A DNA stretch of 55,913 bases from a virus (lineage: Duplodnaviria > Caudoviricetes): positions 1-55,913 of the IMG/VR virus record IMGVR_UViG_3300020045_004009. The stretch is one strand, 5' to 3'. This document shows, one piece after another, positions 11,817 to 47,500 of the stretch; within the stretch, counting starts at the first letter, position 1, and every line of letters begins with the position of its first letter. Both the position numbers and the translations under genes were made by a program. The notes below the pieces were generated by a model. The model worked only from the letters and a program-made list of their open reading frames with translations, did not search any database and was not told where the DNA came from.

Positions 11817-12191
11817 ATGATAGTTATAAAACATAAAGGTAATTTTAAGAATACTGAAAAATTTCTTAATAATGCCGCGCTTTCTAATTATTTGAATATT
11901 TTAGAAAAATATGGTAGAGAAGGAGTATCAGCTCTTTCGGCCGCCACACCAATAGATTCCGGAAAAACAGCAAATTCTTGGGGGTTTGAGATTAAACGTT
12001 TTAATGGTGGTGCGTCAATTGCCTGGACAAATTCAAACGTAGTTAATGGTGTACCTATTGTAATCATTTTACAGTACGGCCATGGTACACGAAATGGCGG
12101 ATATGTTCAAGGACGTGATTTCATAAACCCAACTATACAACCCATATTTGATAAACTCGCAAATGATGTTTGGAAGGAGGTAATCCGATGA
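11817..12191 (+). CDS. HK97 gp10-like tail/neck protein
   Basis: TPIDSGKTANSW and QYGHGT motifs. Confidence 0.65.
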   Translation: MIVIKHKGNFKNTEKFLNNAALSNYLNILEKYGREGVSALSAATPIDSGKTANSWGFEIKRFNGGASIAWTNSNVVNGVPIVIILQYGHGTRNGGYVQGRDFINPTIQPIFDKLANDVWKEVIR

Positions 12192-15100
12192 GTAATGTAG
12201 ACAATCGCATTGTGCAAATGCAGTTTGATAACGGCCAGTTTGAGAGCGGTGTCCAAACGAGTATTAAATCGCTAGATAATCTTAAGAATGGACTTAATTT
12301 GGATGGAGCAACTAAAAGTCTATCTGGTTTAGAGAAGGTTGGCCGAACGTTTTCCCTTGGGGGAATAGCCGATGGTGTCCAAGCTATCTCTGATAAATTC
12401 TCAGCTCTTAGTCTTATTGGAATTACTGCCCTTCAAAATATCACAAATTCTGCTATAAACGCTGGAAAAACCCTTGTTAAGAGTTTGACGGTAGATCCTG
12501 TCAAAATGGGGTTTAATGAATACGAGACAAAAATGGGCGCAATCCAGACAATTCTTACTAACACTGCTAGTAAAGGTACAACGCTAGATGATGTTAATAA
12601 AACTCTAAATGAATTAAACGAATATTCAGATAAGACCATTTATAACTTTTCAGAGATGGCAAAAAATATAGGAACATTTACAGCTGCTGGTATTGGTCTC
12701 GAAACATCAGCAACTTCAATTAAAGGTATTGCTAATTTAGCCGCTGGTTCAGGATCAAATGCCCAACAAGCAGCCACTGCAATGTATCAGTTATCTCAAG
12801 CATTAGCCGCTGGTTCGGTTAAACTTATGGATTGGAATTCTGTCGTTAATGCTGGTATGGGAGGAGAGCTTTTCCAAAATGCCTTAAAAACAACTGCAAA
12901 ACAAATGGGGATCGTAGTTAATGAATCTGTGCCATTTAGAGAATCACTGCAAGATGGTTGGATCACAGCCGAAGTCTTAACAAAAACCTTATCTAAATTT
13001 GCAGAAGATGAAGCTCTAGTTAAAGCCGCGACACAGGTCAAATCATTTACACAATTATTTGACACAATGAAAGAATCTGTTCAATCTGGATGGGCTCAAT
13101 CGTGGGAAAACATAATTGGTAATAAAGATGAAGCCTCCGCAACGCTTACTGCTATTAATAATGCTTTTGGCTCCATTGTTGGATCAGCTGCAAATGCTAG
13201 AAATGAAATGCTTTCATTTTGGAAGGTCAATGGGGGAAGAGATGCGCTCATCGAAGCCATTACAAATTCTTTTAAAGGTCTCCAAGCAATTATAAAACCG
13301 ATAACTGATGGTTTTAGAGAAATTTTCCCAGCAATGAGCGGCGAAAGGCTTGTTAAGTTATCTAAAGGAATCCTGGATTTAACGGAAAACTTCAAAATAG
13401 GAGAAACTACCGTCACAAACATAAAAAATACTTTTAAAGGGTTATTTGCTATTCTTGATATTGGAAAACAAGCCTTTTTAGCAATAGCGGATGTGGTAGG
13501 GCCTTTTTTAAAAAAAATACTCCCAATTGGCGATGGTATATTAGGAGTTACGGGTTCGATCGGCGAGTATCTCGTATCCATCGATGAGATGATCAAGAAA
13601 ACAGACGCCTTTACTGGTATATTCTCTAAAATTGGGACCTTCTTAAAACCAATTGCCGAAAAAATACAATTAGCATTCAGTGTTATTAAAGATGCGTTTC
13701 AATCATTCGTTAATATTGATTTAACAGGGGTTGATGCATTTTCAGAGAGAGTAAAGATTAGACTCGAACCATTCTCTAAAATCGGAGAAGGTGTGAGTAA
13801 AGCGTTTGATAAAATAAGTGACGCCTTTAAAAAAGCAGCTCCTATATTTTCGAAACTTGGAACTATCATAGGAGACGCTTTTGCCAAATTACGAGAGAGT
13901 GTATCAAATGGTCTAGATGCCGCCGATTTCAACAGTCTATTAGATCTATTCAATGGCGGCGTATTTGCTTTGATTTTAGTAGGTATCAAAAAATTTATCG
14001 ATAATCTCGGAAGCATCTCGAAAGATGGAAAGGGTGTTTTTGGCGGAATTAAAGATATTCTTAATGGGGTAAAAGGGAGCCTGCAAGCATACCAGACCGA
14101 TTTGAAAGCCGGCGCATTACTAAAAATAGCTAGCGCTATCGCGATTCTTGCCGCCGCATTACTTGTGTTATCCGTCATTGACTCAGATAAACTAGCGCTG
14201 GCGTTGACTGCTGTTACCGTCATGTTTGCGGATCTTGTAGGGTCTATGATAGTACTAAATAAAACTCTTGGCGCTAAAGGACTATTGACCTTACAAAGCG
14301 CCACTGCGGCTATGATAACCTTATCAACAGCAATTCTTATTTTAGCTGTAGCAATGACAAAAATTGCCAAATTAGATTGGAACGAAATCGCAAAAGGTCT
14401 TGTCGCTGTAGGTGTGTTATCGGCTACAATGGTGGCGACTGCAAAAGTCCTATCTAGCAACACTGGTAAATTAATGAAGGGCGCTCTTGGTATGATCGCG
14501 TTTGCTGGCGCATTAACAATTCTTGTTGGCGTCGTCAAAGAACTCGGGGAGCTTGACCCGGCATCTTTAGCTAAAGGCCTAGTTGGTGTTGGCGTACTTG
14601 TTACCGAATTAGCGCTCTTTACGAAACTTACCGAAACAAATAAAGCTGGTATTGGTAAAGGTTTAGGCCTGATAGCTCTTGCTGGCGCAATTTCAATACT
14701 CGCAACCGCAGTGCAAACCTTTGCCGTCATGGACCCGGTACAGTTACTGCAAGGAATAGGCGCCATTGCCCTTATTTTATCAGAACTTACAGCGTTCATT
14801 AAACTTACTGGCGATGCATCAAAGGTTATTTCAACGGCTATCGGCCTAACAATCTTAGCCTCTGCGATGCTCATACTGTCACAAGCATTAGGCGACATGG
14901 GAAAATTACCTATTGAAGAGATAGGAAAAGGACTATTAGCTATGGCGGGAGTTCTAGGAGCTATTACTCTTGCCCTTAATCTGATGCCAAAGGATGTGGC
15001 GTTAAAAGCAGTTGGGTTAGTTATTGTGGCAGCAGCATTAGTTATATTGGCAGATGCATTAAAAAGTATGAGTGAAATGTCATGGGACGAAATAGGTAGA

Positions 15101-16603
15101 GGGTTAGTTGTCCTTGCTGGGGCATTAGGTATAATAGCAGTAGCAATGATGTTAATGAAAACGGCCCTACCTGGAGCAGCGGCATTAGTACTTATTGCAG
15201 CAGCACTCGCTATCTTAGCACCAGTGTTGGTTACTCTAGGAGAAATGTCATGGGCAGAGATCGGAAAAGGTTTACTCGCTTTAGCTGGTATATTTGTCAT
15301 TCTTGGGGTAGCAGGTTTACTCTTAGCCCCACTAACCCCTGTTATTATAGCTTTAGCTGGTAGTATTGCTCTGCTTGGATTAGGTTGTATACTGGTTGGC
15401 GCAGGATTATTATTATTTTCAGCGGGTCTAGCTGCATTAGCCGTCTCCGGGACAGCAGGCGCCGCCGCTTTAGTAGTGATTGTAACGGCCCTTATAGGTT
15501 TAATACCTTTCATAATACAAAAAATGGCAGAAGGTCTTATAGCGCTAGCTAAAGTTATCATTGAGGGTGCCCCAATAATCGCAGAAGCAATTACAGCAGT
15601 TGTGGTAGCTCTTATCGACGCATTAGTAGTCATTATACCAGCAGTTGTAGAAGGCGTAATGAAACTTGTTACCGCATTACTCGACACATTGATACAATAC
15701 CTGCCAAACATAATTGATGCTGGTTTTCAATTGATAATGGGGTTACTTAAGGGTCTCTCCGCAAACATTCAAGATATTGTAGAAGTCGGTATTGATATTG
15801 TATTAGGGTTCCTAGCAGGCGTAACGTCAAAACTCCCAGCTATTGTTGATGCCGCATTTAAATTAATCATTAGTTTTATCAATGGATTAGCAGATGCTAT
15901 TCGCAACAATTCTGCTGCTATATTTGACGCTTGTGAAAATCTTGTTGATGCTATTATCGATGGTATTAAAGTGGTTATTCCTAAATTAGTCAGTATTGGT
16001 AAAAACATCATCGAAGGTCTCATCGAAGGTATTAAGAGTATGGCTACTTCTGTCTTTAATGCCGCCATTACGGTCGTTAGTGATGCAGTAGATGGTGTTA
16101 AAAACTTCTTAGGTATCCACTCTCCGTCAACAGTATTTGAGGAAATAGGTAAGAACTCTGATAAAGGCCTTGCTGGTGGTTTAAAGAAATTCGCAGGCCT
16201 GGTTGGAACCGCGGCTACGAATGTTGGACGTACAGCCGTAGACTCGTTAACCAGTGCGGTGTCAAATATTGCAGATGCGATTAGTGGCGACTTTGACATG
16301 GCGCCTGTTATTCGTCCGGTTCTTGACTTATCCAATGTGGAAGCTGGTGGCCTAAGAATCAACAGTCTGTTCTCACAAAAACAAAGTCTTAACGTTGGAT
16401 CTATAACCAGTAAGATACCCGTTATTGGTCAAACAACTTCTACGAACGACGCTATTAACACCCCCCAAAGCCAGACCGCGCAAGGAGCTTCGGTATCGTT
16501 CGTTCAGAATAACTATTCTCCTGCGGCGTTGTCGAGACTTGATATTTATCGACAGACAAAGAACCAAATCTCGGCGATGAAAGGAATGGTGAGCACCGCA
16601 TGA
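12188..16603 (+). CDS. Tape measure protein
   Basis: About 1470 aa, Ala/Leu/Ile-rich amphipathic repeats, tape-measure N-terminal domain, GIHSPS motif. Confidence 0.92.
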   Translation: MSNVDNRIVQMQFDNGQFESGVQTSIKSLDNLKNGLNLDGATKSLSGLEKVGRTFSLGGIADGVQAISDKFSALSLIGITALQNITNSAINAGKTLVKSLTVDPVKMGFNEYETKMGAIQTILTNTASKGTTLDDVNKTLNELNEYSDKTIYNFSEMAKNIGTFTAAGIGLETSATSIKGIANLAAGSGSNAQQAATAMYQLSQALAAGSVKLMDWNSVVNAGMGGELFQNALKTTAKQMGIVVNESVPFRESLQDGWITAEVLTKTLSKFAEDEALVKAATQVKSFTQLFDTMKESVQSGWAQSWENIIGNKDEASATLTAINNAFGSIVGSAANARNEMLSFWKVNGGRDALIEAITNSFKGLQAIIKPITDGFREIFPAMSGERLVKLSKGILDLTENFKIGETTVTNIKNTFKGLFAILDIGKQAFLAIADVVGPFLKKILPIGDGILGVTGSIGEYLVSIDEMIKKTDAFTGIFSKIGTFLKPIAEKIQLAFSVIKDAFQSFVNIDLTGVDAFSERVKIRLEPFSKIGEGVSKAFDKISDAFKKAAPIFSKLGTIIGDAFAKLRESVSNGLDAADFNSLLDLFNGGVFALILVGIKKFIDNLGSISKDGKGVFGGIKDILNGVKGSLQAYQTDLKAGALLKIASAIAILAAALLVLSVIDSDKLALALTAVTVMFADLVGSMIVLNKTLGAKGLLTLQSATAAMITLSTAILILAVAMTKIAKLDWNEIAKGLVAVGVLSATMVATAKVLSSNTGKLMKGALGMIAFAGALTILVGVVKELGELDPASLAKGLVGVGVLVTELALFTKLTETNKAGIGKGLGLIALAGAISILATAVQTFAVMDPVQLLQGIGAIALILSELTAFIKLTGDASKVISTAIGLTILASAMLILSQALGDMGKLPIEEIGKGLLAMAGVLGAITLALNLMPKDVALKAVGLVIVAAALVILADALKSMSEMSWDEIGRGLVVLAGALGIIAVAMMLMKTALPGAAALVLIAAALAILAPVLVTLGEMSWAEIGKGLLALAGIFVILGVAGLLLAPLTPVIIALAGSIALLGLGCILVGAGLLLFSAGLAALAVSGTAGAAALVVIVTALIGLIPFIIQKMAEGLIALAKVIIEGAPIIAEAITAVVVALIDALVVIIPAVVEGVMKLVTALLDTLIQYLPNIIDAGFQLIMGLLKGLSANIQDIVEVGIDIVLGFLAGVTSKLPAIVDAAFKLIISFINGLADAIRNNSAAIFDACENLVDAIIDGIKVVIPKLVSIGKNIIEGLIEGIKSMATSVFNAAITVVSDAVDGVKNFLGIHSPSTVFEEIGKNSDKGLAGGLKKFAGLVGTAATNVGRTAVDSLTSAVSNIADAISGDFDMAPVIRPVLDLSNVEAGGLRINSLFSQKQSLNVGSITSKIPVIGQTTSTNDAINTPQSQTAQGASVSFVQNNYSPAALSRLDIYRQTKNQISAMKGMVSTA

Positions 16604-17598
16604 TTAACTCGGTAACGGTGACAAATTATCTAGGTGAATCGCTCAAAATGGAAATGAGGTTCCCGGAGAAATCTGGGTTCCTTATTCAAGACATAACCGG
16701 ACTCGGACCAAGTAAAGCCAATATCAACTCAACAGAACTATCGACCTCTGACGGCTCGCTGTATAACTCGGCAAGGGTTACATCAAGGAATATAGTACTC
16801 AGTTTAAAACTGCTTTGGAATCCAACAATAGAGACAACTCGTCAAAAGTCATACAAATATTTTCCGATTAAGAAACGCGTTCGTCTCCTGATCGAAACAG
16901 ATAATCGTACGTGCGAGACTTATGGTTACGTCGAGTCGAACGAACCAAACATCTTCAGTAGTCAAGAAACAACACAGATCTCTATTATATGCCCCGATCC
17001 ATATTTATATTCTACTGGAGAAGATGGTAATAATGTAACCATATTCTCTGGAATCGAGTCGCTGTTTGAGTTCCCGTTTTCTAACGAATTAGATATATCT
17101 ACGGAAGATGGAGAAGTTTTCTTTGTAAGCCCAACTACATTAATTGGTCCAACTACATTAATGCTCATGGGTGCAACCTTACTCAATCAAATAGAATTTG
17201 GTGAAGTCGTGCTTAATCAAGAGCAGACGATATATTATACTGGTGATGCCGAGATAGGCGTAATGATTTATATTCATGCGCTAGGAGATGTTACGAATCT
17301 AACGATCTATAATTCTGGAACACGTGAATCTATGAAAATTGACACAACTCGGTTAACAACTATGACTGGTTTTGGGATTATAGAGGGCGACGATATTATT
17401 ATATCCACAATTAAAGGAAACAAATACATAAAATTACTAAGAAGTGGCATATATAGTAATATTCTTAACTGTCTAGATAAGGACGCTGACTGGTTTCAGT
17501 TAACAAAAGGCGACAACGTATTTGCGTTCACAGCTGACACAGGAATTACAAGTCTCCAGTTTAGAATAGAAAATCAGACAGTTTACGAAGGAGTTTAA
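16600..17598 (+). CDS. Distal tail protein (Dit)
   Basis: Follows TMP; ICPDPY and WFQLTKGDN motifs. Confidence 0.8.
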   Translation: MINSVTVTNYLGESLKMEMRFPEKSGFLIQDITGLGPSKANINSTELSTSDGSLYNSARVTSRNIVLSLKLLWNPTIETTRQKSYKYFPIKKRVRLLIETDNRTCETYGYVESNEPNIFSSQETTQISIICPDPYLYSTGEDGNNVTIFSGIESLFEFPFSNELDISTEDGEVFFVSPTTLIGPTTLMLMGATLLNQIEFGEVVLNQEQTIYYTGDAEIGVMIYIHALGDVTNLTIYNSGTRESMKIDTTRLTTMTGFGIIEGDDIIISTIKGNKYIKLLRSGIYSNILNCLDKDADWFQLTKGDNVFAFTADTGITSLQFRIENQTVYEGV

Positions 17599-17599
17599 G

Positions 17600-18658
17600 A
17601 TGGATTTACTAGTTTTAAACACCGATTTAGAAGTCATTGCTGTGTTGGATACGTTCGAGTCACTTATTTGGACAGAAAGATATTGTGGATATGGCGATTT
17701 CGAGATCTATACAAAGGCGTCCGAAGAATTATTGAACATTCTCAGGGAAGATTATTACCTTTGGTTGCGTGATTCGAAGTATGTCATGGTCATTGAGGAC
17801 TTGAACATAAAATTTGACGTTGATATCGGAAATAACATAGTGATTACGGGCCGATCGGCAGAATCAATTTTAGATCGTCGTATTATCTGGGTACAAACGG
17901 TTCTTAGTGGAAGCCTTCAAAATGGAATTCAAAAACTACTTGATGAGAATTTTATTTCTCCAACACTACCAGACCGAGTAATCCCCAATTTTATATTTGA
18001 GGCATCGGACGATCCTATTGTTACAGCATTGACCGTTGATGCCCAATTCACGCGTACGAACCTGTACGATTCAACGAAGAAGCTTTGCGTGGCAAATAAT
18101 CTCGGATTCAAAGTGACGCTATCTGACGATAATCATCTCGTATTTAAATTATATTCCGGAACAGATAGATCTTATGATCAAATTCTAAACACCTACGTTG
18201 TATTCTCTCAAAAATTTGAAAATATCATAAATAGTAATTATTTCGAATCCAAAAAGACTTTGAAGACTATTACGGTGGTCGCTGGCGAAGGGGAGGGCGC
18301 TGACCGTAAAACGACTATTGTTGGAGGCGGAACAGCTCTTTCTAGACGTGAGTTGTATACGGACGCGAGAGATCTTTCTCAGACAGTCGATGAGGTGCTA
18401 ATACCCGAAGCCGATTATCTAGCTCAACTAGCTCAACGAGGAATTGAAGATCTCTCCGAGCATGTTTTCGAGAAGTCTTTTGACGGCCAGGTGGATACAA
18501 CTCGTATGTTTGAATATGGGGTAGACTTCTTCCTAGGTGATATTGTGCAGATTGTTAGTGAGTATGGAATTGCGTCGAAAGCTCAAATCACAGAGATTAT
18601 CCGATCACAAAGCACTACTGGTATAGAAGTCTATCCTACATTTATTATGATTGAATAA
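17600..18658 (+). CDS. Minor tail protein (ReqiPepy6 gp37-like / Tal)
   Basis: SLIWTERY..GDFEIY, VAGEGEG, DFFLGDIV motifs. Confidence 0.8.
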   Translation: MDLLVLNTDLEVIAVLDTFESLIWTERYCGYGDFEIYTKASEELLNILREDYYLWLRDSKYVMVIEDLNIKFDVDIGNNIVITGRSAESILDRRIIWVQTVLSGSLQNGIQKLLDENFISPTLPDRVIPNFIFEASDDPIVTALTVDAQFTRTNLYDSTKKLCVANNLGFKVTLSDDNHLVFKLYSGTDRSYDQILNTYVVFSQKFENIINSNYFESKKTLKTITVVAGEGEGADRKTTIVGGGTALSRRELYTDARDLSQTVDEVLIPEADYLAQLAQRGIEDLSEHVFEKSFDGQVDTTRMFEYGVDFFLGDIVQIVSEYGIASKAQITEIIRSQSTTGIEVYPTFIMIE

Positions 18659-18670
18659 AAGGAGGTTCGC

Positions 18671-19507
18671 ATGAGCGTAACGTATGGGTTTTATAACTCA
18701 ATAGGCGGAGATCGCCGATATAATGCAGATCAAATGTCGATGTTATTTGACGGGCTCATTAACGATGGTGTTTTTATGTCTATCGGCGACGCGTTAATGG
18801 TTACTGCGGCGTCCGGAATGAATATTAATATTGGCGAAGGACGAGCATGGTTCAACCGCACATGGACAAATAATGACGCCCAACTTCAATTAACTGTCGA
18901 CCTATCAGAGGTAGTTCTTCATAGAATTGATACGGTTGTGTTAGAGATTAATTCTGAGAATGCCACACGAGCAAATGTTATAAAGATTATAAAAGGCACG
19001 CCTGCAAGTTCGCCAGTAGCACCAACACTGACAGAAACCGAGTTTATCCATCAACACCCCATATGCCATATTTATGTTGAGGCTGGTGTTAATGAGATTA
19101 TTCAAGCTAATATCACAAACACTGTTGGTACTTCAGTATGTCCTTTTGTTACTGGCATCTTAGAAACAGTAAATATCAACTCATTACTTGCACAATGGGA
19201 ATCTGAATTTCAGGTTTGGTTTGCGACTTTAGAAGATATTTTAGACGAGAACACGGCTGCAAATTTGTTGAATCTGATAAACGATAAGATGTATCCAGTG
19301 GCTGGTGGCGCAAACACCTTCGCTGGAAATGGCTCTGAAAAAACAATCCCTCATGGTCTATCTATTACCCCAACTTTAGCGAGTGTTACGCCATTGTCTA
19401 ACCCCGAAGGTTATTTAGGTGAAATATGGACTAGAATCGATGCGACAAATTTATATGTTGGTAACTCCGGAAGCCACACAGGAAGTTTTTCTTGGGTTTT
19501 GTTTTAA
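18671..19507 (+). CDS. Baseplate / tail fibre base protein
   Basis: YGFYNS..GDRRYNA N-terminus typical of this tail position; short C-terminal domain. Confidence 0.65.
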   Translation: MSVTYGFYNSIGGDRRYNADQMSMLFDGLINDGVFMSIGDALMVTAASGMNINIGEGRAWFNRTWTNNDAQLQLTVDLSEVVLHRIDTVVLEINSENATRANVIKIIKGTPASSPVAPTLTETEFIHQHPICHIYVEAGVNEIIQANITNTVGTSVCPFVTGILETVNINSLLAQWESEFQVWFATLEDILDENTAANLLNLINDKMYPVAGGANTFAGNGSEKTIPHGLSITPTLASVTPLSNPEGYLGEIWTRIDATNLYVGNSGSHTGSFSWVLF

Positions 19508-19534: not shown

Positions 19535-20869
19535 ATGAATTCACCAACCTCCGCAAGTCTACTACTAGATCATGACTGCAATTTAAGATGTACTTATTGT
19601 TTTGAGAAGCATAATAAACTTAACATGACAAAGGAAATTGCAAGAAAATCGTTAGATTATTTATCCAACAACGCCATCAAAGATAAAACTGGAGAATTTT
19701 CAGTAATTTTCTTTGGCGGCGAACCTTTTCTACAACCGGCTATAATGCAAGAGCTTTTCGAGTATGGGAATAAGATCGCAGAAGAAAAGAAACTTCATTT
19801 TTCAGTTACGATAATTACAAACGCAACTATCTTAACCGAAAGAATTGACATGCTATTACGAACTTATATGAAAAAATGTAATATCCATTTACAACTTTCG
19901 GTTGATGGTGTTCAAGACGTGCACGATGAGTATAGAGTAACCAGAGATGGTAACGGATCTTTTCATATGGTTGAGAAAAACATACCAAAATTTCTTGATA
20001 TATTTAAAGATAATCATAGTCAACTCAATATTCACGGATGCATCAATAAAAAAACCATGTCTAGACTTTACGAGAACTATAAGTTCTTTAGAGAGACATT
20101 AGGGTTCGAACGTGTATGGTTTAAAACGGTAACGACTGAGGAATGGGACACCAATGATGTTACCATCTATCATGAACAAATGTCGTTAATCTATAATGAT
20201 ATTGTTGCTAAAATTAAAAAAGATAATAATAGTAAAGAAGTATACGGGTATGCACCTCTTGATCGGTGTTTGAACACTGGTAAAAGACCCAACAAACCAT
20301 GTGGTTGCGGCGATAATTTTGTAACTATAACCGGGGATGGTGAAATTTATCCTTGTCATCAATTCTATTTTAATGACCCAGAAAAATCAACCAAAATAGG
20401 AGATATTTGGACAGGGATAGATGAAGGTAAGCGTAAGATATTCTTAAATTTTGACTCGGACGATCTATGTGATCCTTCCTGCAAAAACACCCAATGCTAC
20501 AAATGTATTGCTGAGAATTGGCAACACAACGGTAGCATTCTAAGTCAAGTTAAAGGGATATATTGTAAGCTTTCTTCTGTAGAAAAACACTTTCAAAATA
20601 AACTAATAAAAGAGGTTGAACATATGGGTTTATTAAATAAGCAAGATCAGAATAATTGCGCAAGAGGTAATAATCCAAATAATCCAGCTTGTCTTTGTGA
20701 TTCTCGTGGAGGAGATAATCCGTTGGAACGTCTTATAAAAGATCCTTGCGAGGATGGTAACACACAAGAGGATAAAGACGAGATCATTGCAATGTCATTA
20801 CACGAAATTTTAAAAAGGCTTTCTGATATAGAAAAGGTTCAATCAGTTATTTTAAACAAAGTTATTTAA
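19535..20869 (+). CDS. Radical SAM/SPASM-domain peptide maturase
   Basis: CNLRCTYC, FFGGEP, SVDG; SPASM cysteines CGCG...IYPCHQF...CDPSC...CYKC...YC; ATG 19535 after GAAAGGAG. Confidence 0.92.
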   Translation: MNSPTSASLLLDHDCNLRCTYCFEKHNKLNMTKEIARKSLDYLSNNAIKDKTGEFSVIFFGGEPFLQPAIMQELFEYGNKIAEEKKLHFSVTIITNATILTERIDMLLRTYMKKCNIHLQLSVDGVQDVHDEYRVTRDGNGSFHMVEKNIPKFLDIFKDNHSQLNIHGCINKKTMSRLYENYKFFRETLGFERVWFKTVTTEEWDTNDVTIYHEQMSLIYNDIVAKIKKDNNSKEVYGYAPLDRCLNTGKRPNKPCGCGDNFVTITGDGEIYPCHQFYFNDPEKSTKIGDIWTGIDEGKRKIFLNFDSDDLCDPSCKNTQCYKCIAENWQHNGSILSQVKGIYCKLSSVEKHFQNKLIKEVEHMGLLNKQDQNNCARGNNPNNPACLCDSRGGDNPLERLIKDPCEDGNTQEDKDEIIAMSLHEILKRLSDIEKVQSVILNKVI

Positions 20870-20901
20870 TTTATAACTTTCTCGGAGAGCGAGGTGGCAT
20901 A

Positions 20902-21669
20902 ATGGGATTAAGTTTAAGAGAGTTAAAAGAAGCTATGATCGCAAAACAAGGATATACTATAACGCCAAATCATAGTTCTTTTGACGATTTAAGATTGTTA
21001 TTAAACGATATGTATGCGGTTAGAAATGCTGCCGGATCGACTTGCACCGGGCACTCTGGGTCTACATATTCTAGTGAAAAATCACTAGCCGGTTTCAATA
21101 CGGCAGTTACAGGTTTAAAAGCTTGTACGTGTAATAGTAGGACTGGTGCAAGTTGCGATTGTGTTGGAAGAACTAGTGGTGTTGGTTGCAATTGTAATGC
21201 TAGAACCGCAACATGTGATTGTGTTAGCCGAACTGCCAGTTATGGTTGTACCTGTAATACATATGATTATTGTGATTGCCAATCGAGAACTTATGCGGAT
21301 ACATGTACCGGTTATACGGCACAATCATGTAATTGTTTTTCTAGGGTAACATGTGAGGGTAATTATTCATGCACTTGTGTTGGAAGAACAACGGTATGTG
21401 ACTGTGTTACAAATAGTGGATGTGTATGCGTTTCAAGACTGACCTGTGACACTCTAACCCCAGGAATTTGCACATGTAACTCTAGAACTTCGGCGCCAAC
21501 ATGTTACTGTAACACTAGGACGGGCGGTTGTAGTTGTGTTTCGGTTGAAACTACCCCTCCTTGTAGTTGTAATATTTATGGATCTTGCGATTGTGTATCA
21601 AGAACCGGTACAGAAGCCTGCACGTGTAACGGAAGATGCTCATGTGATTCTGAAAAAGTATTCTCATAG
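20902..21669 (+). CDS. Cys-rich repeat protein (putative rSAM substrate/precursor)
   Basis: 38 Cys, 17 CxC units (12 as CxCxxR) after a ~74-aa Cys-poor leader; flanked by two rSAM genes. Confidence 0.8.
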   Translation: MGLSLRELKEAMIAKQGYTITPNHSSFDDLRLLLNDMYAVRNAAGSTCTGHSGSTYSSEKSLAGFNTAVTGLKACTCNSRTGASCDCVGRTSGVGCNCNARTATCDCVSRTASYGCTCNTYDYCDCQSRTYADTCTGYTAQSCNCFSRVTCEGNYSCTCVGRTTVCDCVTNSGCVCVSRLTCDTLTPGICTCNSRTSAPTCYCNTRTGGCSCVSVETTPPCSCNIYGSCDCVSRTGTEACTCNGRCSCDSEKVFS

Positions 21670-21674
21670 GAGAA

Positions 21675-22538
21675 ATGATGGAAAGATATGTAATTCATGT
21701 AACAAAAGAGTGTAATTGCGATTGTTTGTATTGTTATGAAAAAGATAAGACAAGCGTATATACATGGCCAGAAATCAAAAAATTGCTCGACGACATCGTG
21801 CTATACAACAAAGAATTTAGTATTGAGTTTTTAGGAGGAGAGCCACTTCTTGCGTTCGATTTAATAAAACAATCTTACTACTATCTTGAGTCTTTGACGG
21901 ACGTTTTAGTACACGATTATGCGATTACGTCAAACGGAACGATCCTAACACCTGAGATTATTGAGTTTCTACAAAAGAATAAAAAAGTCTCTATTTGTTT
22001 TAGTATGGACGGGCATTCACACGCTAATCAATTGCGAGTACTCAAAGACTCAAGAAAAAATACATATCATAATGTAATGGAAAATGTTAAAAAAATGCAA
22101 GAAAATGGCCTTACCCCATCTATTCATATGGTTTCTCACCTATATAATGTCTCTATGATCGCTGATAGCATCAGCCATCTATACGCATTGGGAATTAGAC
22201 ATGTTGACGTTGGTACGATTGAGAACACCATGGTTATCGATGCGGAATATTGCGACAGATTTATCAAAGAGATGAAAATTGTATCTGACAAAATACATTC
22301 GGGCATCTATAACAGTTTAAATGTGGGGATACTTCAATGGTTAAAACCTAAGGATGATGTCCGGACATATCTTAGAGACAAAGATGGAAAATTACTTGGA
22401 GAGAGCTACGGACGAGCTACGGACGATTTAACACAAAACGATAATCAATATGCAGTCCTTAAATGCGATTCTTCTTTAGGCGACACCATTTATAACATTC
22501 GTAAAACTGTCTATGATTATCATAACAAACCTATTTAA
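21675..22538 (+). CDS. Second radical SAM protein (no evident SPASM domain)
   Basis: CNCDCLYC, FLGGEP, TSNG, SMDG; only 287 aa. Confidence 0.88.
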   Translation: MMERYVIHVTKECNCDCLYCYEKDKTSVYTWPEIKKLLDDIVLYNKEFSIEFLGGEPLLAFDLIKQSYYYLESLTDVLVHDYAITSNGTILTPEIIEFLQKNKKVSICFSMDGHSHANQLRVLKDSRKNTYHNVMENVKKMQENGLTPSIHMVSHLYNVSMIADSISHLYALGIRHVDVGTIENTMVIDAEYCDRFIKEMKIVSDKIHSGIYNSLNVGILQWLKPKDDVRTYLRDKDGKLLGESYGRATDDLTQNDNQYAVLKCDSSLGDTIYNIRKTVYDYHNKPI

Positions 22539-22551
22539 GGAGGTAGCCATC

Positions 22552-24072
22552 ATGCCATTACAAGACTTACCTGACGAAACGGTTCCATGGCAGGAAATAA
22601 ATGAAATAATCACTGCTAACTTCAACAATATTGTAGGGGAAGGCCGTAGTACGGAGACTGTTATGGGGGCTTATGCGGCAATTGCAGCTATATCCCCAAC
22701 TGGTAATGCCTTGTCGGACGAGATTGATATTTTCAATCCTCCTGCTGGGCTGACCGCGTGCGTTCCTGGCGCTAACAGTGGAGCTGCCTTTGCCGCTATC
22801 TTAGCATATGCAAAAACAAACGGTAAAGGTATTTATGTACCAAATGCTTCTGCCCCACCGTTGGTTAATGCTATTGATCTTTCTGGTTGTAAAGGGGTCA
22901 CTATCAGAAGCAGATCCCAAAAATGTAGTGGTTTAAAACTCAATTCCGGACAAAATAACGACTTTATAACCTTGTTTGGGACTAGCAATGATGCCGATGG
23001 GTGCGGCGTTCACGATATAAAACTGGATTGTAACGGAGCACAAGTCGGAAACAATGCAGCGATCCGAATCAATGGAATTCATATTGGAACAAAATTTGAA
23101 AATCTATATTTGTATAATGGATACACAGGCATCGCCATAAACGGTGATGAAGGAACAAATACTTATCGTTGGATATACCAGTTTGACAACGTTTGTATCA
23201 CTGGCATGGCTGGGTATGGCATTGATGGTATCGGGTCAGACAATTCATTCGAAAGATTTGTCGTCGGACCAACTAAACTACACAATGTTAAAGCCAACGG
23301 AGCTAATGTCCGTATGGGTAACTTCAAATGTATGGGTAGCAAGGAGGAGTCTGGTTTCTATGTATCTGGCTCACGGCTACAGATGGTCAATATAGACTGT
23401 CAAGAATCGTTTATGCATGGTATGGAGATTAATGGTAGTTACGATCTTACTATTAATAATCTGAACTGTGATAATAACGGTCTTGATTGGCCTGCTTATA
23501 TCATTTCAGGTGATGCAACAACCTCAATAAAAGCAGTACGCGATAGTTATGGATTACATATGACGAACGTCGAAAACTCAACCATTCAGGGGTATAATTT
23601 TAGTAATCGAAATACTTTGTATCGTTACGGTCTTGGCGCCTACTATGCAAATAGTGGATCAAAAGGATTAAAAGTACAAGTCAATCATGAAACAAATCCT
23701 TATGCCTACTCGATTGACGATTCAAATGGTGGCATCGACTTTATGGAACAAAAAAACTCGACTTTGTGGTTGACCGCAGATTACACCCTTACTAGTGCCG
23801 ACATAGGTAAGATGATTGTTGTCAATTCAACAAATCCAGTTGTCGTCACTGTACCAACAGTTGCGATTGACCCGTCTATTAAAAATGGAAAGCCTGTGTC
23901 GACAAGAATTATTCGTCGAGGTACGGGTACCGTATCGATTGCTAGTGCGGCGTCAATTAGCAGCATCAGTGGGCATAAGTTTATCAGCACTCAGTATGGA
24001 ATGATGGAACTATCGAGAGATACGTCAGCGAATGACAAATGGTTTTTAAATGGGAACTTAGCAATATCGTAA
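22552..24072 (+). CDS. Right-handed beta-helix (pectin lyase-like) tailspike/depolymerase
   Basis: NSGAAFAAILA..GIYVP start and Asn/Gly ladder repeats; C-terminal fibre-like domain; ATG after AAGGAGG. Confidence 0.7.
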   Translation: MPLQDLPDETVPWQEINEIITANFNNIVGEGRSTETVMGAYAAIAAISPTGNALSDEIDIFNPPAGLTACVPGANSGAAFAAILAYAKTNGKGIYVPNASAPPLVNAIDLSGCKGVTIRSRSQKCSGLKLNSGQNNDFITLFGTSNDADGCGVHDIKLDCNGAQVGNNAAIRINGIHIGTKFENLYLYNGYTGIAINGDEGTNTYRWIYQFDNVCITGMAGYGIDGIGSDNSFERFVVGPTKLHNVKANGANVRMGNFKCMGSKEESGFYVSGSRLQMVNIDCQESFMHGMEINGSYDLTINNLNCDNNGLDWPAYIISGDATTSIKAVRDSYGLHMTNVENSTIQGYNFSNRNTLYRYGLGAYYANSGSKGLKVQVNHETNPYAYSIDDSNGGIDFMEQKNSTLWLTADYTLTSADIGKMIVVNSTNPVVVTVPTVAIDPSIKNGKPVSTRIIRRGTGTVSIASAASISSISGHKFISTQYGMMELSRDTSANDKWFLNGNLAIS

Positions 24073-24135: not shown

Positions 24136-26199
24136 ATGATATTTGCACTTGGGTTACATCTCATGGGGATGATGAATCGGGTGGTTAATCAAGTTGCTTC
24201 GTTTATTCTCGGTAATTTTGATCTTTACGATCCTCCAACAGCTCCATCGGAATATGTAACAGATGCGACAGGTAAAGTTTTAAATATAACCGATGCACAG
24301 TTTTTGTCTACGTTTTATGATGGGTTTGTCGGAACTCAAACCGATGGCATGGTGGTAACAAAGACAAGCCTTGGTATGGATGAAAGCAATACATACCATA
24401 TTTATGAGTATGATTTTTGCCCAGAAAATTACACAAAAACTATCTTGCTATCAAGTGGGATGCATCCGTATGAATTGTCTGCATCTTTTGGTTTAGCGCA
24501 ATTTATAAATCACATGATGGCAACCCCGTATCAACACAATGGATTCCGTTATCTTCGTGAAAATGTGCGTGTGAAAGTTATTCCAATCATCAATCCGTGG
24601 GGATGGAACCAAAACCCCAAAAAATACGGGAATGTGAATGGTGTCAATATAAATCGTAATTTTGATTACGGTGGATTATGGGCTGCCTATCCTGTTTATA
24701 CTGATGAATGGAATAAAAAAGGAGAGTCCGCTTTTTCAGAAGCCGAAACGGTTGTCGTAAGAGATTGGATTCTTGCAAATAGTACGGCAGAATTTTATAT
24801 CGATATGCATACTGGGATTGGTATTGGACCGTGGGATAATTTTATCTATTACCAGACAGCCGACCCGCAGTTAACACGCATTACATATTCATTGTCACGA
24901 TTAGACGCAAGAATAACCAGCAAGTACAGCAAAGCAAACCCTAGCGAGGAAATAAGAGTAAGCTATGCAGGGGATCATAAAGGTGCATACCTTGTCGGTC
25001 AAATGGGTTGGACAGGATTAAGTATTGAGCAGACACCAAATAACTTATTGTGGGGAACGAGTTTAAATAATGAAAGTGGTGACATTTCTGAGTTTGAAGC
25101 AACTATATGTGCGTATGTGTTCACATTTTTATCAGCCACCCCGATTTTGGTAAAGGTAGATAACCCGACTTCTGGAAATACAGAAACGGTGTTTAGCATA
25201 CAATACAAACTGGATGACAATGAGGGTGGAATATTTACAGTAACGCGCACTATTGATGGTGTATCGACAACAGAAAATGTTTCTGGGGCAGGTACAAAAA
25301 CATGGGATGTTGGCACTTTGGGGTCAGGCACAAAAGCATTGTCTGTGAAAGTTACCGACAATACCGGCTATGAATCCAATACATTAACTTATTCTATTCT
25401 TGTTTCTGCTCCTGTGGCGGTTACAGGGGTATCGCTTAATAAATCAACTACATCTATAAATATTGGTTCCGCTGAACAATTAACAGAAACGGTGGCTCCT
25501 TCCGATGCTGCAAACAAAGATGTTACATGGTCATCCAGCAATACAAATTATGCTACGGTTTCAAGTTCTGGTTTAGTGACAGCGGTGGCGGCTGGTTCTG
25601 CGACGATCACAGTGACAACCATGGACGGGAATTTTACATCCACTTGTTCTGTTACAGTAATAGCGGCTTCAACTGTTATAGCTGATACATACACACGTTC
25701 TAATAACACAAATATTGGTAACACAGAAGTTGGAAATAAAACATATGTTCAACAAGTTTCTGATGGGTGGGAAATCGTAAGCGGTAAATTAAAATCAAGA
25801 AGTACCGATTCAAACAATGCAATAACAGTATTAGCCGATTCCGGTAACTATGATATTTCTGTTGACGTAACATGGAGAGTTTATGCTGGTATTACATTTA
25901 GGTATTCTGCTCAAAATAATCATATTGTTGCAAGAATTAATTCGACATCGTTGAATCTGTTTAAAAATATTGATGGGACAGTAACTAGCCTTGGAACGCC
26001 TTATAGCTTTACTCCTGTATCGGGTACTACTTATAAATTAAGGGTTGTTGCAAATGGATCAAATATCAAGGTATTCATCGATGGAACCGAAACACATAAT
26101 GTAACCGAAACATTCAACCAAACTTATGCCAATATCGGATTTAGAACGGCAAACGACACAACAACAGAGTTTGATAACTTGGAAGTTTATAATGTTTAA
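24136..26199 (+). CDS. M14 zinc carboxypeptidase + Ig-like (Big_2) + lectin-like domain protein
   Basis: HxxE (GMHPYE), NINRNF, IDMHTG; VAVTGVSLNK...VTWSSSN Big_2 repeat. Confidence 0.82.
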   Translation: MIFALGLHLMGMMNRVVNQVASFILGNFDLYDPPTAPSEYVTDATGKVLNITDAQFLSTFYDGFVGTQTDGMVVTKTSLGMDESNTYHIYEYDFCPENYTKTILLSSGMHPYELSASFGLAQFINHMMATPYQHNGFRYLRENVRVKVIPIINPWGWNQNPKKYGNVNGVNINRNFDYGGLWAAYPVYTDEWNKKGESAFSEAETVVVRDWILANSTAEFYIDMHTGIGIGPWDNFIYYQTADPQLTRITYSLSRLDARITSKYSKANPSEEIRVSYAGDHKGAYLVGQMGWTGLSIEQTPNNLLWGTSLNNESGDISEFEATICAYVFTFLSATPILVKVDNPTSGNTETVFSIQYKLDDNEGGIFTVTRTIDGVSTTENVSGAGTKTWDVGTLGSGTKALSVKVTDNTGYESNTLTYSILVSAPVAVTGVSLNKSTTSINIGSAEQLTETVAPSDAANKDVTWSSSNTNYATVSSSGLVTAVAAGSATITVTTMDGNFTSTCSVTVIAASTVIADTYTRSNNTNIGNTEVGNKTYVQQVSDGWEIVSGKLKSRSTDSNNAITVLADSGNYDISVDVTWRVYAGITFRYSAQNNHIVARINSTSLNLFKNIDGTVTSLGTPYSFTPVSGTTYKLRVVANGSNIKVFIDGTETHNVTETFNQTYANIGFRTANDTTTEFDNLEVYNV

Positions 26200-47124: not shown

Positions 47125-47455
47125 GCGAAAAAGTGTTACACTTATTTTTTGAAAGTGTAACAAAACGTAACAAAAGTGTAACAAAATTTGAAAATTATTT
47201 TAGAAAAAATTAAAAATGTAAAAAAATGGAAATAAAAAAATGTGAAAAAAACGATTTTGTTACACTTTACTGTAACAATGTTACACTTTCAAAAAAAAGT
47301 GTAACACCCTCTAGGCCTTGGTATGACTGGGTTTGCGGGGTTATGTTACACTTGTTACACTATATTTACTATTTGTTGTGGAAAATGAGTTTAAATATAT
47401 ATACGCAAAAATAAAAAGTTTTATGAAAAAAAAGTGTAACATTGTAACAAACTCT
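47125..47455. repeat. AT-rich region with about 12 direct and inverted (T)GTAACA/TGTTAC(AC) repeats; putative replication origin
   Basis: Copies near 47135, 47155, 47166, 47176, 47258, 47270, 47279, 47299, 47344, 47353, 47434, 47443; directly upstream of the replicase. Confidence 0.7.
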
Positions 47456-47500
47456 AAAAACGGGTTAAAAATCACTAAAAACACAGAAAGGAGGAGGGTT

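What the first reader, a model, noticed from the sequence alone, without database searches (positions are those of the whole stretch)
19535..22538. Phage-encoded double radical-SAM cluster with a 38-Cys CxCxxR-repeat substrate, embedded in the tail module
Seen: three tightly spaced genes (rSAM-SPASM, a 255-aa Cys-rich protein, a short rSAM) lie between the baseplate gene and the tailspike. The middle protein has a ~74-aa Cys-poor leader followed by 17 CxC units, 12 of them CxCxxR(T). Established: rSAM-SPASM enzymes next to Cys-rich peptides install thioether crosslinks (sactipeptides, ranthipeptides such as SCIFF), but those precursors are usually short and come with transporter or peptidase genes. 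Inference: this one is far longer, has no transporter beside it and sits among virion genes. It may therefore be a post-translationally crosslinked or metal-loaded virion fibre or receptor-binding element, or a multi-core RiPP released at lysis. I know of no characterised system of this kind.
Basis: partly seen in the sequence, partly recalled or inferred. Interest (0 to 1): 0.93.

Follow-up and report, generated by a model that had tools for sequence, protein, structure and literature searches.

The report
Phage tail-fibre radical-SAM cysteine-repeat cassette
A phage carries, right behind a tail-fibre gene, two radical-SAM enzymes and a 255-residue protein built of CxCxxR repeats; the same set recurs in about 25 phage and prophage lineages and may be a chemically stapled tail-fibre part, a kind of virion protein not described before.

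Summary
Window 19535-22538 encodes three genes. The first is a radical-SAM/SPASM enzyme that lacks the N-terminal peptide-recognition domain (RRE); its nearest matches are PapB and CteB, below family cut-offs. The second is a 255-aa protein with 38 Cys, 17 CxC and 12 CxCxxR, far beyond shuffles. The third is a 287-aa radical-SAM enzyme without SPASM.

The Cys protein matches no Pfam, NCBIfam or PHROG model. It belongs to a rare family: 125 cluster representatives among 1.84 billion.

I found the cassette in 25 lineages of phages, prophages and metagenome contigs. The triad is complete in 19, cut by contig ends in 5, and incomplete in one short contig.

New here: the gene in front always ends in the same ~70-aa "HGL" domain, although the rest of these proteins is unrelated (79-1036 aa; nine of 17 tested hit tail or tail-fibre PHROGs). 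Where gene order differs, the HGL gene sits directly before the Cys-repeat gene.

Best reading: a protein-scale, ranthipeptide-like crosslinked protein that works at the tail-fibre tip, as adhesins and chaperones encoded after fibre genes do. The chemistry and the virion location are inferred, not shown.

The closest precedent is CrpA/CrpC (2026), which is cellular. I found no paper on a phage system.

The parts
18671..19507 (+). Short fibre-like tail protein (278 aa). The N-terminal ~205 aa match phrog_1220. The C-terminal ~70 aa (about nt 19298-19504) form the 'HGL' domain shared by every evaluable cassette locus.
   Evidence: PHROG hit. C-terminal all-vs-all BLAST and a local HMM of the HGL domain. 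The gene follows the tape measure, Dit and the Sipho_Gp37 tail protein.
19535..20869 (+). rSAM1, a radical-SAM/SPASM enzyme of 444 aa. CxxxCxxC lies at residues 15/19/22, so there is no N-terminal RRE. SPASM-type Cys lie at 256/258, 274, 312, 316, 321, 324 and 344. A C-terminal extension follows.
   Evidence: Pfam Radical_SAM 3.8e-13. NCBIfam best hit PapB at 1.1e-61, 208.9 bits against a cut-off of 340. Matches CteB (5WGG) at 5.6e-25, aligned from CteB residue 101. Cys positions; conserved columns.
20690..20707 (+). Substrate-like CLCDSR motif inside the C-terminal extension of rSAM1, within a conserved GNNPxxPxCLCD block.
   Evidence: Invariant columns in alignment A2; translation checked. 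Most rSAM1 homologs carry one CxCxxR. The L008 enzyme carries three such motifs.
20902..21123 (+). N-terminal folded domain (aa 1-74) of the Cys-repeat protein. It probably docks to the enzymes and/or the fibre. It contains the nearly invariant Cys48 followed by His51.
   Evidence: AlphaFold2 pLDDT 87-97 over residues 1-80. Conserved across the family. A local HMM finds this domain only in CxCxxR proteins: 43 of 43 hits.
21124..21669 (+). Cys-repeat region (aa 75-255): 17 CxC units spaced 6-11 residues apart, 12 of them CxCxxR. It ends in the conserved CxCNGRCxCxxxxxF tail. This is the presumed target of crosslinking.
   Evidence: Counts. AlphaFold2 pLDDT is below 50 across the repeats but 84 for the last strand, residues 250-254.
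21675..22538 (+). rSAM2, a 287-aa radical-SAM enzyme with the core fold only, no SPASM, and a conserved ~90-aa C-terminal domain.
   Evidence: Pfam Radical_SAM 2.7e-15; NCBIfam best hit PapB at 9.4e-29 over the core only. AlphaFold2 pLDDT 89.5. Foldseek top hits are CteB, anSME, SkfB and ChlB. It is 29% identical to rSAM1 over 141 aa.
22552..24072 (+). Downstream tailspike-like protein of 506 aa (context gene). It shows that the cassette lies inside the tail module of this phage.
   Evidence: AAGGAGG ribosome-binding site before the start at 22552. Atlas hit of 0.95 with 189 shared features to a viral pectate-lyase-like cluster carrying PF12708. PHROG virion-structural hit at the C-terminus, 3.9e-7.

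Best explanation
This is a four-part phage module: (i) a ~70-aa 'HGL' domain at the C-terminus of a tail-fibre-type protein, (ii) rSAM1 with SPASM, (iii) a Cys-repeat protein, and (iv) rSAM2.

Proposed mechanism. Late in infection the Cys-repeat protein is made in the cytoplasm. Its folded N-terminal domain serves as the docking handle, because rSAM1 has no RRE of its own.

rSAM1 is a CteB/PapB-type enzyme with auxiliary clusters. I propose that it converts many of the CxC cysteines into intramolecular thioether (ranthionine- or sactionine-type) bridges to nearby residues. The recurrent Cys-x3-Thr spacing inside CxCxxRT parallels PapB's Cys-x3-Asp.

rSAM2 would add a second radical modification, either a second set of links or an epimerisation, or it would help to hold the substrate.

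The repeat region has almost no hydrophobic core. Crosslinking would turn it into a redox-insensitive, protease-resistant stapled rod of about 25 kDa. That rod would act at the tip of the tail fibre, bound to the HGL domain, as a distal extension or adhesin.

Shown here: the gene content, the family relations, the conservation of the module and its linkage to the HGL fibre end.

Inferred: that the Cys protein is the substrate (about 0.8), that the links are thioethers (about 0.6), and that the product is part of or acts on the tail fibre (about 0.5).
For: Enzymes.
- rSAM1 and rSAM2 are nearest to thioether-forming peptide maturases.
- rSAM1 keeps SPASM-type cysteines.

Substrate.
- In 71 family proteins, 865 CxC units hold 1829 of 2215 Cys. 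Arg follows at +5 in 637 units (74%), and Thr follows that Arg in 350 of the 637.
- The window protein has 14 C-x3-T against 2 C-x3-D/E.
- The repeat region is 15% hydrophobic against 28% for the N-domain.

Linkage of the three genes.
- 47 sources collapse to 24 lineages at 90% identity. 18 have the complete triad, 5 are cut by contig ends, and one short contig (L126) has both enzymes but no Cys gene.
- A 25th lineage with a complete cassette (L146) was found independently, through the HGL domain.

Fibre link.
- The HGL HMM hit 45 sources, all of them cassette loci or the window. It hit none of the 90 unrelated loci in the same ORF set.
- 22 of 24 lineages carry the domain; the other two are cut upstream.
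- In L006 and L139, and at the second Cys gene of L098, a small HGL gene sits directly before the Cys-repeat gene.
- Of 17 HGL-bearing proteins tested, 9 hit PHROG 'tail' families of different kinds.
- In the window the cassette lies between this protein and a beta-helix tailspike-like protein. No promoter or terminator signal above chance flanks it.

Protein-scale product.
- Some family members carry extra domains: P0023 has about 200 aa with a weak cadherin/Ig match before the N-domain, P0084 has about 335 non-Cys residues after the repeats, P0042 has an internal ~140-aa insert, and P0139 is 1067 aa long.

Precedent.
- CrpC crosslinks the 28.8-kDa CrpA (PMC13692751; abstract and sections 8 and 14 read).
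Against: - No biochemical or proteomic datum exists. No cultured phage in the INPHARED set has a close rSAM2 (best 28% identity), so no virion proteome can be consulted.
- In several prophages the cassette sits between the last tail gene and the lysis genes. That is also where cargo genes ('morons') are commonly inserted.
- In the large-phage lineages (L002, L127, L131, L133, L134) the HGL-bearing proteins and their neighbours have no PHROG tail annotation.
- The HGL domain can occur without the cassette. L145 is a 1638-aa protein ending in HGL with no rSAM or Cys-repeat gene within 6 kb. L147 is a weaker internal match.
- The window phage already has a separate tailspike-like candidate receptor-binding protein.
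- The repeat motif has no Asp or Glu acceptor as in PapB substrates. All enzyme family scores are far below the curated cut-offs, so the chemistry could differ.
- AlphaFold2 gives no confident fold for the repeats, and Foldseek found no match.
Confidence: 0.5

Rival explanations
1. Cargo (moron) RiPP-like product. The crosslinked Cys-repeat protein, or peptides cut from it, is released at lysis and acts outside the virion as a bacteriocin-like or signalling agent. Its position by the tail genes is incidental.
For: - The enzymes belong to RiPP maturase clades.
- In prophages L010, L011, L012 and L016 the cassette lies at the junction of tail-fibre and lysis genes.
- Some lineages add further tailoring-type rSAMs, HemN-like or B12-type, as RiPP clusters do.
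- The window has an M14 peptidase-domain protein and a protease-like protein downstream.
- A preprint reports that nearly all phage-borne biosynthetic clusters encode bacteriocins (10.1101/2020.10.01.322628; passages read).
Against: - No protease or transporter is a conserved part of the cassette, judged by ORF inspection; this was not tested family by family.
- The repeats have no conserved spacers or cleavage sites.
- Fused multi-domain members exist.
- The tight linkage to the HGL fibre end holds even when gene order changes.
- The window phage has its own DNA polymerase and ligase and no integrase or resolvase. It therefore has no lysogen that could profit from a bacteriocin.
Confidence: 0.15
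2. Assembly factor. The modified Cys-repeat protein binds the HGL tip only during fibre folding or attachment, like T4 gp38 or Tfa-type chaperones, and is not carried in the virion.
For: - It has the same gene position as known fibre chaperones, directly after the fibre gene (recalled knowledge of T4 gp38 and P2/Mu Tfa).
- It co-occurs with the HGL domain.
- Both ends of the protein are conserved while the middle is variable.
Against: - A chaperone would hardly need two dedicated radical-SAM enzymes or 16-81 cysteines.
- The repeat number varies widely, which fits an exposed, fast-evolving part better.
- Members with large C-terminal extra domains exist.
Confidence: 0.12
3. Same module, different chemistry. 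The enzymes do not make thioethers. They might oxidise Cys to formylglycine as anSME does, form C-C or other crosslinks, or epimerise residues. Alternatively the protein is mainly a metal or Fe-S binding, metallothionein-like protein.
For: - All curated family scores are far below cut-off; rSAM1 also hits the sulfatase maturase model at 5.7e-23 and cyclophane-forming families.
- anSME is among the top structural matches of rSAM2.
- CxC motifs are typical of metallothioneins (recalled).
- Arg, not an acid, is the best-conserved non-Cys residue.
Against: - The sulfatase motif C/S-x-P/A-x-R is absent: 0 matches.
- The best hits for both enzymes are the ranthipeptide enzymes PapB and CteB.
- Known Cys-rich substrates of this clade all receive thioethers (PMC13692751 and the PapB papers, abstracts seen).
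- Metal binding alone would not need two rSAM enzymes.
Confidence: 0.15

Closest known systems
CrpA/CrpC of Methanococcus voltae (TIGR04463-type rSAM/SPASM; PMC13692751, 2026)
   Same: An rSAM/SPASM enzyme acts on a protein-sized (28.8 kDa) substrate. That substrate has a conserved N-terminal region and a C-terminal array of Cys repeats, with no obvious protease or transporter. Ranthionine links were shown there. AlphaFold was uncertain on those repeats too.
   Different: CrpC has an RRE; rSAM1 has none. rSAM1 scores only 62.6 bits against TIGR04463, whose cut-off is 525. The Crp repeat is a 17-residue unit with C-x-x-Q/D, not CxCxxR(T). The Crp system has no second SPASM-less rSAM. It is cellular and archaeal, with a suggested metal link, and is not in a phage tail module.
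PapB/freyrasin and CteB/thermocellin (SCIFF) ranthipeptide systems
   Same: These are the best sequence and structure matches for both enzymes. They show repeated Cys-x3-acceptor logic (PapB) and Thr as acceptor (CteB; recalled).
   Different: Their precursors are short peptides with cleaved leaders. Both enzymes carry an N-terminal RRE: PapB residues 1-85 (PMC12715619, passages read) and the first ~100 residues of CteB, which have no counterpart in the alignment. The acceptors are Asp or Glu in PapA. Scores here are 208.9 against 340 and 141.6 against 425.
CXXX-repeat peptide system (TIGR04114 target, TIGR04115/TIGR04119 maturase, TIGR04116 partner)
   Same: An rSAM maturase is paired with a long Cys-periodic repeat protein. 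rSAM1 hits TIGR04115 (5.5e-35) and TIGR04119 (1.9e-20). A CQxxC-type repeat protein with its own PapB-like rSAM lies in the same fibre region of L006. The nearest Atlas clusters are viral and carry the CXXX target family in 53% of members; at a score of 0.84 this is a lead only.
   Different: The periodicity differs: CxC pairs every 6-11 residues rather than every fourth residue. The window has no match to TIGR04114 or TIGR04116. The maturase scores are below cut-off.
QhpD/QhpC (quinohemoprotein amine dehydrogenase gamma subunit)
   Same: An rSAM/SPASM enzyme installs several Cys thioethers in a polypeptide that stays a structural subunit of a protein complex (recalled). The TIGR03906 hit is 1.5e-40.
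   Different: QhpC is small, with 4 Cys linked to Asp or Glu. It belongs to a periplasmic enzyme, not a virion. The score is 139 bits against a cut-off of 453.
Tail-fibre tip partners encoded after the fibre gene (T2/S16 gp38 adhesin, T4 gp38 and P2/Mu Tfa chaperones)
   Same: In this module a non-enzymatic protein gene travels with the exchangeable C-terminal tip domain of the fibre, while the fibre's N-terminal anchor differs from phage to phage. That is the pattern seen here for HGL plus the Cys-repeat protein. The known examples are recalled, not tested.
   Different: There is no sequence relation. None of the known partners is Cys-rich or comes with modifying enzymes.

Membership tests
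Radical SAM superfamily (PF04055) | CxxxCxxC cluster motif and a Pfam score above the gathering cut-off | tested here: met
   rSAM1 scores 50.4 bits and rSAM2 57.4 bits against a cut-off of 29.5. The motif lies at residues 15/19/22 in rSAM1 and 13/17/20 in rSAM2.
SPASM-domain rSAM maturases | C-terminal domain with about 7 Cys for two auxiliary [4Fe-4S] clusters | tested here: met
   This holds for rSAM1 only. Cys lie at 256/258, 274, 312, 316, 321, 324 and 344; most are invariant in A2, and they align to the SPASM region of CteB. The spacing departs from the canonical Cx2Cx5Cx3C. rSAM2 has no such Cys, so the feature is not met for rSAM2.
PapB family ranthipeptide maturase (NF047865) | Score at or above the curated cut-off of 340 bits | tested here: not met
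   rSAM1 scores 208.9 bits and rSAM2 100.7 bits.
PapB family ranthipeptide maturase (NF047865) | N-terminal RRE (PapB residues 1-85) and a Cys-x3-Asp/Glu substrate motif | tested here: not met
   Only 14 residues precede the cluster motif. The window substrate has 2 C-x3-D/E against 14 C-x3-T. The RRE boundary is taken from PMC12715619.
SCIFF maturase / CteB (TIGR03974) | Score at or above 425 bits; an RRE; a six-Cys-in-forty-five peptide partner | tested here: not met
   The score is 141.6 bits, matching profile positions 101-437 only. The partner is a 255-aa repeat protein.
TIGR04463 (CrpC-type, Cys-rich protein maturase) | Score at or above 525 bits | tested here: not met
   The score is 62.6 bits over the N-terminal core only.
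CXXX-repeat system (TIGR04114/04115/04116/04119) | Target repeat model, partner protein and maturase all above their cut-offs | tested here: not met
   TIGR04115 scores 121.5 against 350 and TIGR04119 73.2 against 150. TIGR04114 and TIGR04116 have no match in the window at E<=1. Pfam PF27846 is not in the local library, so it could not be tested.
Anaerobic sulfatase maturase (TIGR03942) | Score at or above 349 bits and the substrate motif C/S-x-P/A-x-R | tested here: not met
   The score is 81.6 bits. The motif has no match in the Cys-repeat protein. The motif itself is recalled.
Ranthipeptide/sactipeptide-type product (thioether crosslinks) | Cys sulfur to carbon bridges shown by mass spectrometry | not testable with these tools
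   This needs anaerobic co-expression and mass spectrometry.
Phage virion tail-fibre component | Presence in purified virions, or binding to a fibre protein | not testable with these tools
   Only gene linkage to the HGL fibre end is available. No cultured relative exists in the phage collection.

The most novel reading that the evidence does not exclude
Phages use radical-SAM enzymes to staple one of their own virion proteins. The CxCxxR-repeat protein becomes a thioether-laced rod or adhesin that docks on, or is even covalently linked to, the conserved HGL tip of the tail fibre. This would give a redox- and protease-proof receptor-binding appendage whose length evolves by changes in repeat number. 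It would be the first RiPP-type modification of a phage structural protein and a new class of fibre architecture, exchanged between sipho-, myo- and large phages as one module.
Probability: 0.4. Interest if true: 0.92.

Novelty: new variant of a known kind. Interest (0 to 1): 0.8.

Why it matters
Enzymatic thioether stapling is known for small antibiotic peptides. It has only just been shown for one cellular protein.

If phages apply it to a tail-fibre part, three things follow. A new post-translational chemistry joins virion biology. It would explain how a core-less, Cys-rich repeat can form a stable extracellular structure when made in a reducing cytoplasm. And it would mark a new, portable host-range module.

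The two compact enzymes lack an RRE and act on tandem CxCxxR units. That could also interest peptide and protein engineers, as PapB does now.

The claim is directly testable, because isolates with the prophage exist, for example the Dethiothermospora halolimnae SD1 contig behind L016.

Tried and rejected
- Nucleotide and tblastn searches of the cultured-phage collection with the locus and with the Cys protein gave no match. The low-complexity filter may mask the repeats. rSAM2 found only 24-40% partial matches.
- Foldseek of the Cys-repeat model against the PDB gave nothing at E<=0.001. The model is low-confidence outside residues 1-80.
- A homo-trimer prediction of the Cys-repeat protein returned 'no answer', score 0.00. 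It counts neither for nor against.
- A search for long proteins carrying the N-domain found none. This is weak evidence, as the tool itself states.
- The sulfatase-type motif is absent.
- The Atlas structure rows all had TM below 0.4.
- The promoter and terminator scan found nothing above shuffles around the triad.
- PDB sequence searches of the two flanking tail proteins gave no hits.
- Pfam on 18 HGL domains gave only two weak DUF7483 hits and one weak Mtd_N hit.
- Sequencing runs: none was listed and no RNA holder was listed.
- Literature. The searches for phage, tail fibre and radical SAM listed no paper whose title or abstract concerns this system. Two of them returned no paper at all. 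I opened two papers. PMC12801897 concerns an unrelated cyanophage rSAM. The preprint 10.1101/2020.10.01.322628 does not mention sacti- or ranthipeptides.
- The supplementary data of PMC13692751 list further rSAM-associated Cys-rich proteins. I could not see them, and they might include relatives of this family.

Full report
What is there. The window is a 55.9-kb IMG/VR virus record, 94% complete, with all long genes on the + strand. Its gene order is large terminase, portal, a protease/head fusion, major tail protein, tape measure (12170-16603), Dit (16600-17598), a Sipho_Gp37 tail protein (17600-18658) and a 278-aa protein (18671-19507). The three genes of the finding follow. After them come a 506-aa protein (22552-24072) and a 687-aa M14 + Big_2 + lectin-like protein, then replication genes that include a 1414-aa polymerase and a ligase. 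No integrase or resolvase was found, so the phage looks non-temperate.

The three genes are tightly packed and each has a ribosome-binding site. No promoter-like or terminator-like signal above shuffled expectation flanks them. They therefore read as part of the late tail operon.

The observation. The middle protein has 38 Cys in 255 residues, with 17 CxC, 12 CxCxxR and 9 CxCxxRT. Shuffles of its repeat region gave means of 7.3 and 0.48, and none of 20,000 reached the observed numbers. At DNA level the repeats are only 65-90% alike over 20-51 nt, and no tandem array is called. Selection on the protein keeps the motif.

The enzymes. rSAM1 (444 aa) and rSAM2 (287 aa) both pass Pfam Radical_SAM. 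For both, the best NCBIfam model is the PapB ranthipeptide maturase (208.9 and 100.7 bits against a cut-off of 340). The SCIFF, QhpD, nif11 and CXXX-repeat families follow, all far below their cut-offs.

The only solved relative by sequence at high significance is CteB. The rSAM1 alignment starts at CteB residue 101, after CteB's recognition domain. rSAM1 has its cluster motif at residue 15, so it has no RRE. It keeps a SPASM-type set of cysteines.

rSAM2 is the core barrel plus a conserved ~90-residue C-terminal domain, with no auxiliary-cluster cysteines. Its AlphaFold2 model (pLDDT 89.5) matches CteB, anSME, SkfB and ChlB best. The two enzymes are distant paralogues, 29% identical over 141 residues.

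The Cys-repeat family. The protein hits nothing in Pfam, NCBIfam or PHROGs. A profile search of 1.84 billion cluster representatives found 125 proteins at E<=0.001, 85 at E<=1e-10 and 16 at E<=1e-30. A word-indexed search found 41, of which only three carry any name from a source, in each case 'hypothetical protein'. The family is real but rare. In a sample of its bacterial class, 2 of 399 scored genomes have it, one being the centre genome itself.

In 71 aligned members the repeat consensus is C-[STDN]-C-[NVDQ]-[STGA]-R-T. The statistics are:
- 865 CxC units, with Arg at +5 in 74%.
- Thr follows that Arg in 350 of 637 units.
- 1829 of 2215 Cys lie in CxC.
- Unit spacings are mostly 6 and 8-11 residues.
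- Members are 168-332 aa long with 16-51 Cys. Members outside this alignment reach 494 aa and 81 Cys and 1067 aa.

The first ~75 residues form a conserved domain that AlphaFold2 folds with pLDDT 87-97. The repeats stay below 50, and the conserved last strand reaches 84. A local HMM of the N-domain hit only CxCxxR proteins among 13,067 ORFs of all fetched loci, 43 of 43.

Several members are multi-domain:
- P0023 (Lysinibacillus) has about 200 extra residues before the N-domain, with a weak cadherin/Ig-like match below the Pfam cut-offs.
- P0084 has about 335 non-Cys residues after the repeats.
- P0042 has an internal ~140-residue insert.
- P0139 is 1067 residues long.

These architectures fit a modular structural protein better than a leader-plus-core peptide.

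Conservation of the set. I scanned with rSAM1 or rSAM2 through viral contigs, one genome per prokaryote species and metagenome contigs. With the window this gave 47 sources carrying close relatives. I dropped the weaker, partial rSAM hits of those scans (L017-L089, L100-L115, L141) and used them as controls.

The 47 sources collapse to 24 lineages at 90% identity:
- 18 have rSAM1, the Cys-repeat protein and rSAM2.
- 5 are cut by a contig end (L013, L097, L123, L135, L137).
- One 3.9-kb contig (L126) has both enzymes side by side, with no Cys gene before the contig ends.

Some lineages have two Cys-repeat genes (L016, L098). Others add a HemN-like rSAM and further rSAMs or a B12-rSAM (L002, L013, L127-L136).

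The bacterial hits are mostly Clostridia-type genomes: Thermoanaerobacterales, Tissierella, Peptostreptococcaceae and Dethiothermospora. Each of the five genomes searched whole (G001-G005) has a single locus. Where enough of the contig is held, the locus lies in a prophage. The order there is tape measure, baseplate-J-like, a short fibre gene, the cassette, then amidase or holin.

The link to the fibre. I compared the last 90 residues of the proteins encoded just upstream. They share a ~70-residue C-terminal domain, consensus F.G.G.E..I.HGL...P...NP.GYLGE.W.R.D.TN.YVGN.GS.TG.F.W, although the rest of these proteins is unrelated and they range from 79 to 1036 residues.

An HMM of this 'HGL' domain hit 45 sources. 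All are cassette loci or the window, and none is among the 90 unrelated loci in the same ORF set. By lineage the count is 22 of 24; the other two are cut upstream.

Where the gene order differs, the HGL gene stays next to the Cys-repeat gene:
- In L006 a 257-aa HGL protein lies between rSAM2 and the Cys gene.
- In L139 a 79-aa HGL-only ORF directly precedes the Cys gene.
- In L098 the second Cys gene has its own 85-aa HGL ORF.

I tested 17 HGL-bearing proteins against PHROGs:
- 9 hit 'tail' families of different kinds: tail-collar fibre, tail fibre and minor tail.
- The window's protein hits phrog_1220, which is labelled head protein, but the gene sits after Dit and the tail protein.
- 7 have no hit or only hits of unknown function; several of these are from contigs of 100 kb or more.

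A pattern scan of viral contigs with the HGL domain found six loci. Three were already known, and one is a new complete cassette (L146). Two lack the cassette. L145 is a 1638-aa protein ending in a good HGL domain. L147 is a weaker, internal match. The domain can therefore stand alone, but in the data at hand the cassette is never seen without it. A word-indexed search for the domain found only 8 proteins, one named 'phage tail protein' with the tail-collar fibre Pfam domain. HGL has no Pfam family.

Interpretation. The pattern has two parts. The N-terminal anchor differs from phage to phage. The C-terminal tip domain travels together with the downstream genes. This is the known layout of exchangeable fibre-tip modules, in which the next gene encodes a tip-binding adhesin or chaperone (recalled: T2/S16 gp38, T4 gp38, P2/Mu Tfa). 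The only non-enzyme in the cassette is the Cys-repeat protein.

Its repeat region has few hydrophobic residues (15%) and cannot form a normal core. Two dedicated enzymes of the thioether-forming clade lie beside it. I therefore read it as a protein-scale, ranthipeptide-like product that works at the fibre tip.

The Cys-x3-Thr register inside CxCxxRT (14 in the window protein against 2 Cys-x3-Asp/Glu) parallels PapB's Cys-x3-Asp. Thr is the acceptor in the CteB product (recalled). The acceptor assignment is an inference. The role of rSAM2 is open: a second link type, epimerisation or substrate holding. A thioether staple would give what a disulfide cannot, namely stability when made in a reducing cytoplasm and used in reducing habitats. 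That is a rationale, not evidence.

What speaks against. There is no experimental datum. The tail/lysis junction is also a cargo-gene site. The contigs of 100 kb or more lack tail annotation around the cassette. HGL occurs without the cassette in L145. The window phage has a separate beta-helix tailspike-like protein. The enzyme scores are far below all family cut-offs, so other chemistry is possible. The repeats could not be modelled. These points keep my overall confidence near 0.5.

Comparison with the known. The closest system in kind is CrpA/CrpC (PMC13692751; abstract and sections 8 and 14 read). There an rSAM/SPASM enzyme puts ranthionine links into a 28.8-kDa Cys-repeat protein that has a conserved N-terminal region. 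This cassette differs in five ways: the enzyme family, the missing RRE, the repeat motif, the second rSAM, and the phage and fibre context.

The PapB, CteB, QhpD and CXXX-repeat systems are related by enzyme clade, but every membership test failed on score or on a defining feature (see the table). My six full-text searches and the two papers I opened turned up no paper on an rSAM and Cys-repeat cassette in phage tail modules. The supplements of the Crp paper were not visible to me.

Verdict. It is a new variant of a known kind, rSAM-matured Cys-repeat proteins. The fibre link is unreported in the literature I could search and is testable. If that link is borne out, it would be a new kind of virion protein modification.

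Noticed in passing
window 20690-20707 (rSAM1 residues 386-391); L008:7980-9476: The C-terminal extension of rSAM1 carries a conserved substrate-like CxCxxR motif within GNNPxxPxCLCD. Most homologs have one copy. The L008 enzyme has three C[LY]CDLR[ST]G copies. It could be a pseudo-substrate, a self-modification site or a cluster ligand.
   Followed up: partly
L008:7980-9476 and L008:10968-11906 (same as L122): In this ~128-kb viral contig rSAM1 has two in-frame TGA codons. Both read as Trp under table 4. One stands where all four aligned homologs have Trp; at the other, two of the four have Trp. rSAM2 has one in-frame stop at a Trp position of homologs; I did not check which codon it is. This suggests a TGA=Trp recoded phage. 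Its Cys-repeat protein is the largest seen in a cassette locus: 494 aa with 81 Cys.
   Followed up: partly
L006:3365-5343: A second, different pair lies in the same fibre-gene region of a 187-230-kb viral contig. It is a PapB-like rSAM/SPASM (NF047865, 1.9e-67) followed by a 241-aa protein with 27 Cys in CQxxC-type (every fourth residue) repeats. The repeat protein has no NCBIfam hit at 1e-5.
   Followed up: partly
L127-L136, L002, L013, L146: Lineages from larger contigs (up to about 235 kb; several are only 11-60 kb) extend the cassette with a HemN-like rSAM. In L131, L132 and L136 two more rSAM genes follow, and in L013 a B12-binding rSAM. Paralogous 400-440-aa proteins starting with ...RGVRKVSE... 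flank the cassette. Their function is unknown.
   Followed up: no
window 24136-26199 and 27642-28790: A 687-aa protein combines an M14 zinc-carboxypeptidase domain, a Big_2 domain and a 3-keto-disaccharide-hydrolase-like (lectin-fold) domain. A 382-aa protein matches a PHROG 'protease' family. Both lie downstream of the tail genes and could be virion-associated wall hydrolases or processing enzymes.
   Followed up: no
window 7324-9162 and 47333-51577: A 612-aa ORF matches a head maturation protease family over residues 190-609 and also a major head protein family. A 1414-aa ORF joins primase-like and DNA polymerase regions.
   Followed up: no
L145:1312-6228: A 1638-aa protein in a 99-kb viral contig ends in a good HGL domain, yet no rSAM or Cys-repeat gene lies within 6 kb downstream. 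This is the one clear case of HGL without the cassette.
   Followed up: partly
window 20902-21123 (Cys-repeat protein residues 48-51): The otherwise Cys-free N-terminal domain has a nearly invariant Cys48, usually followed two residues later by His (C-x-x-H). It could be a metal ligand or the first crosslink site.
   Followed up: no
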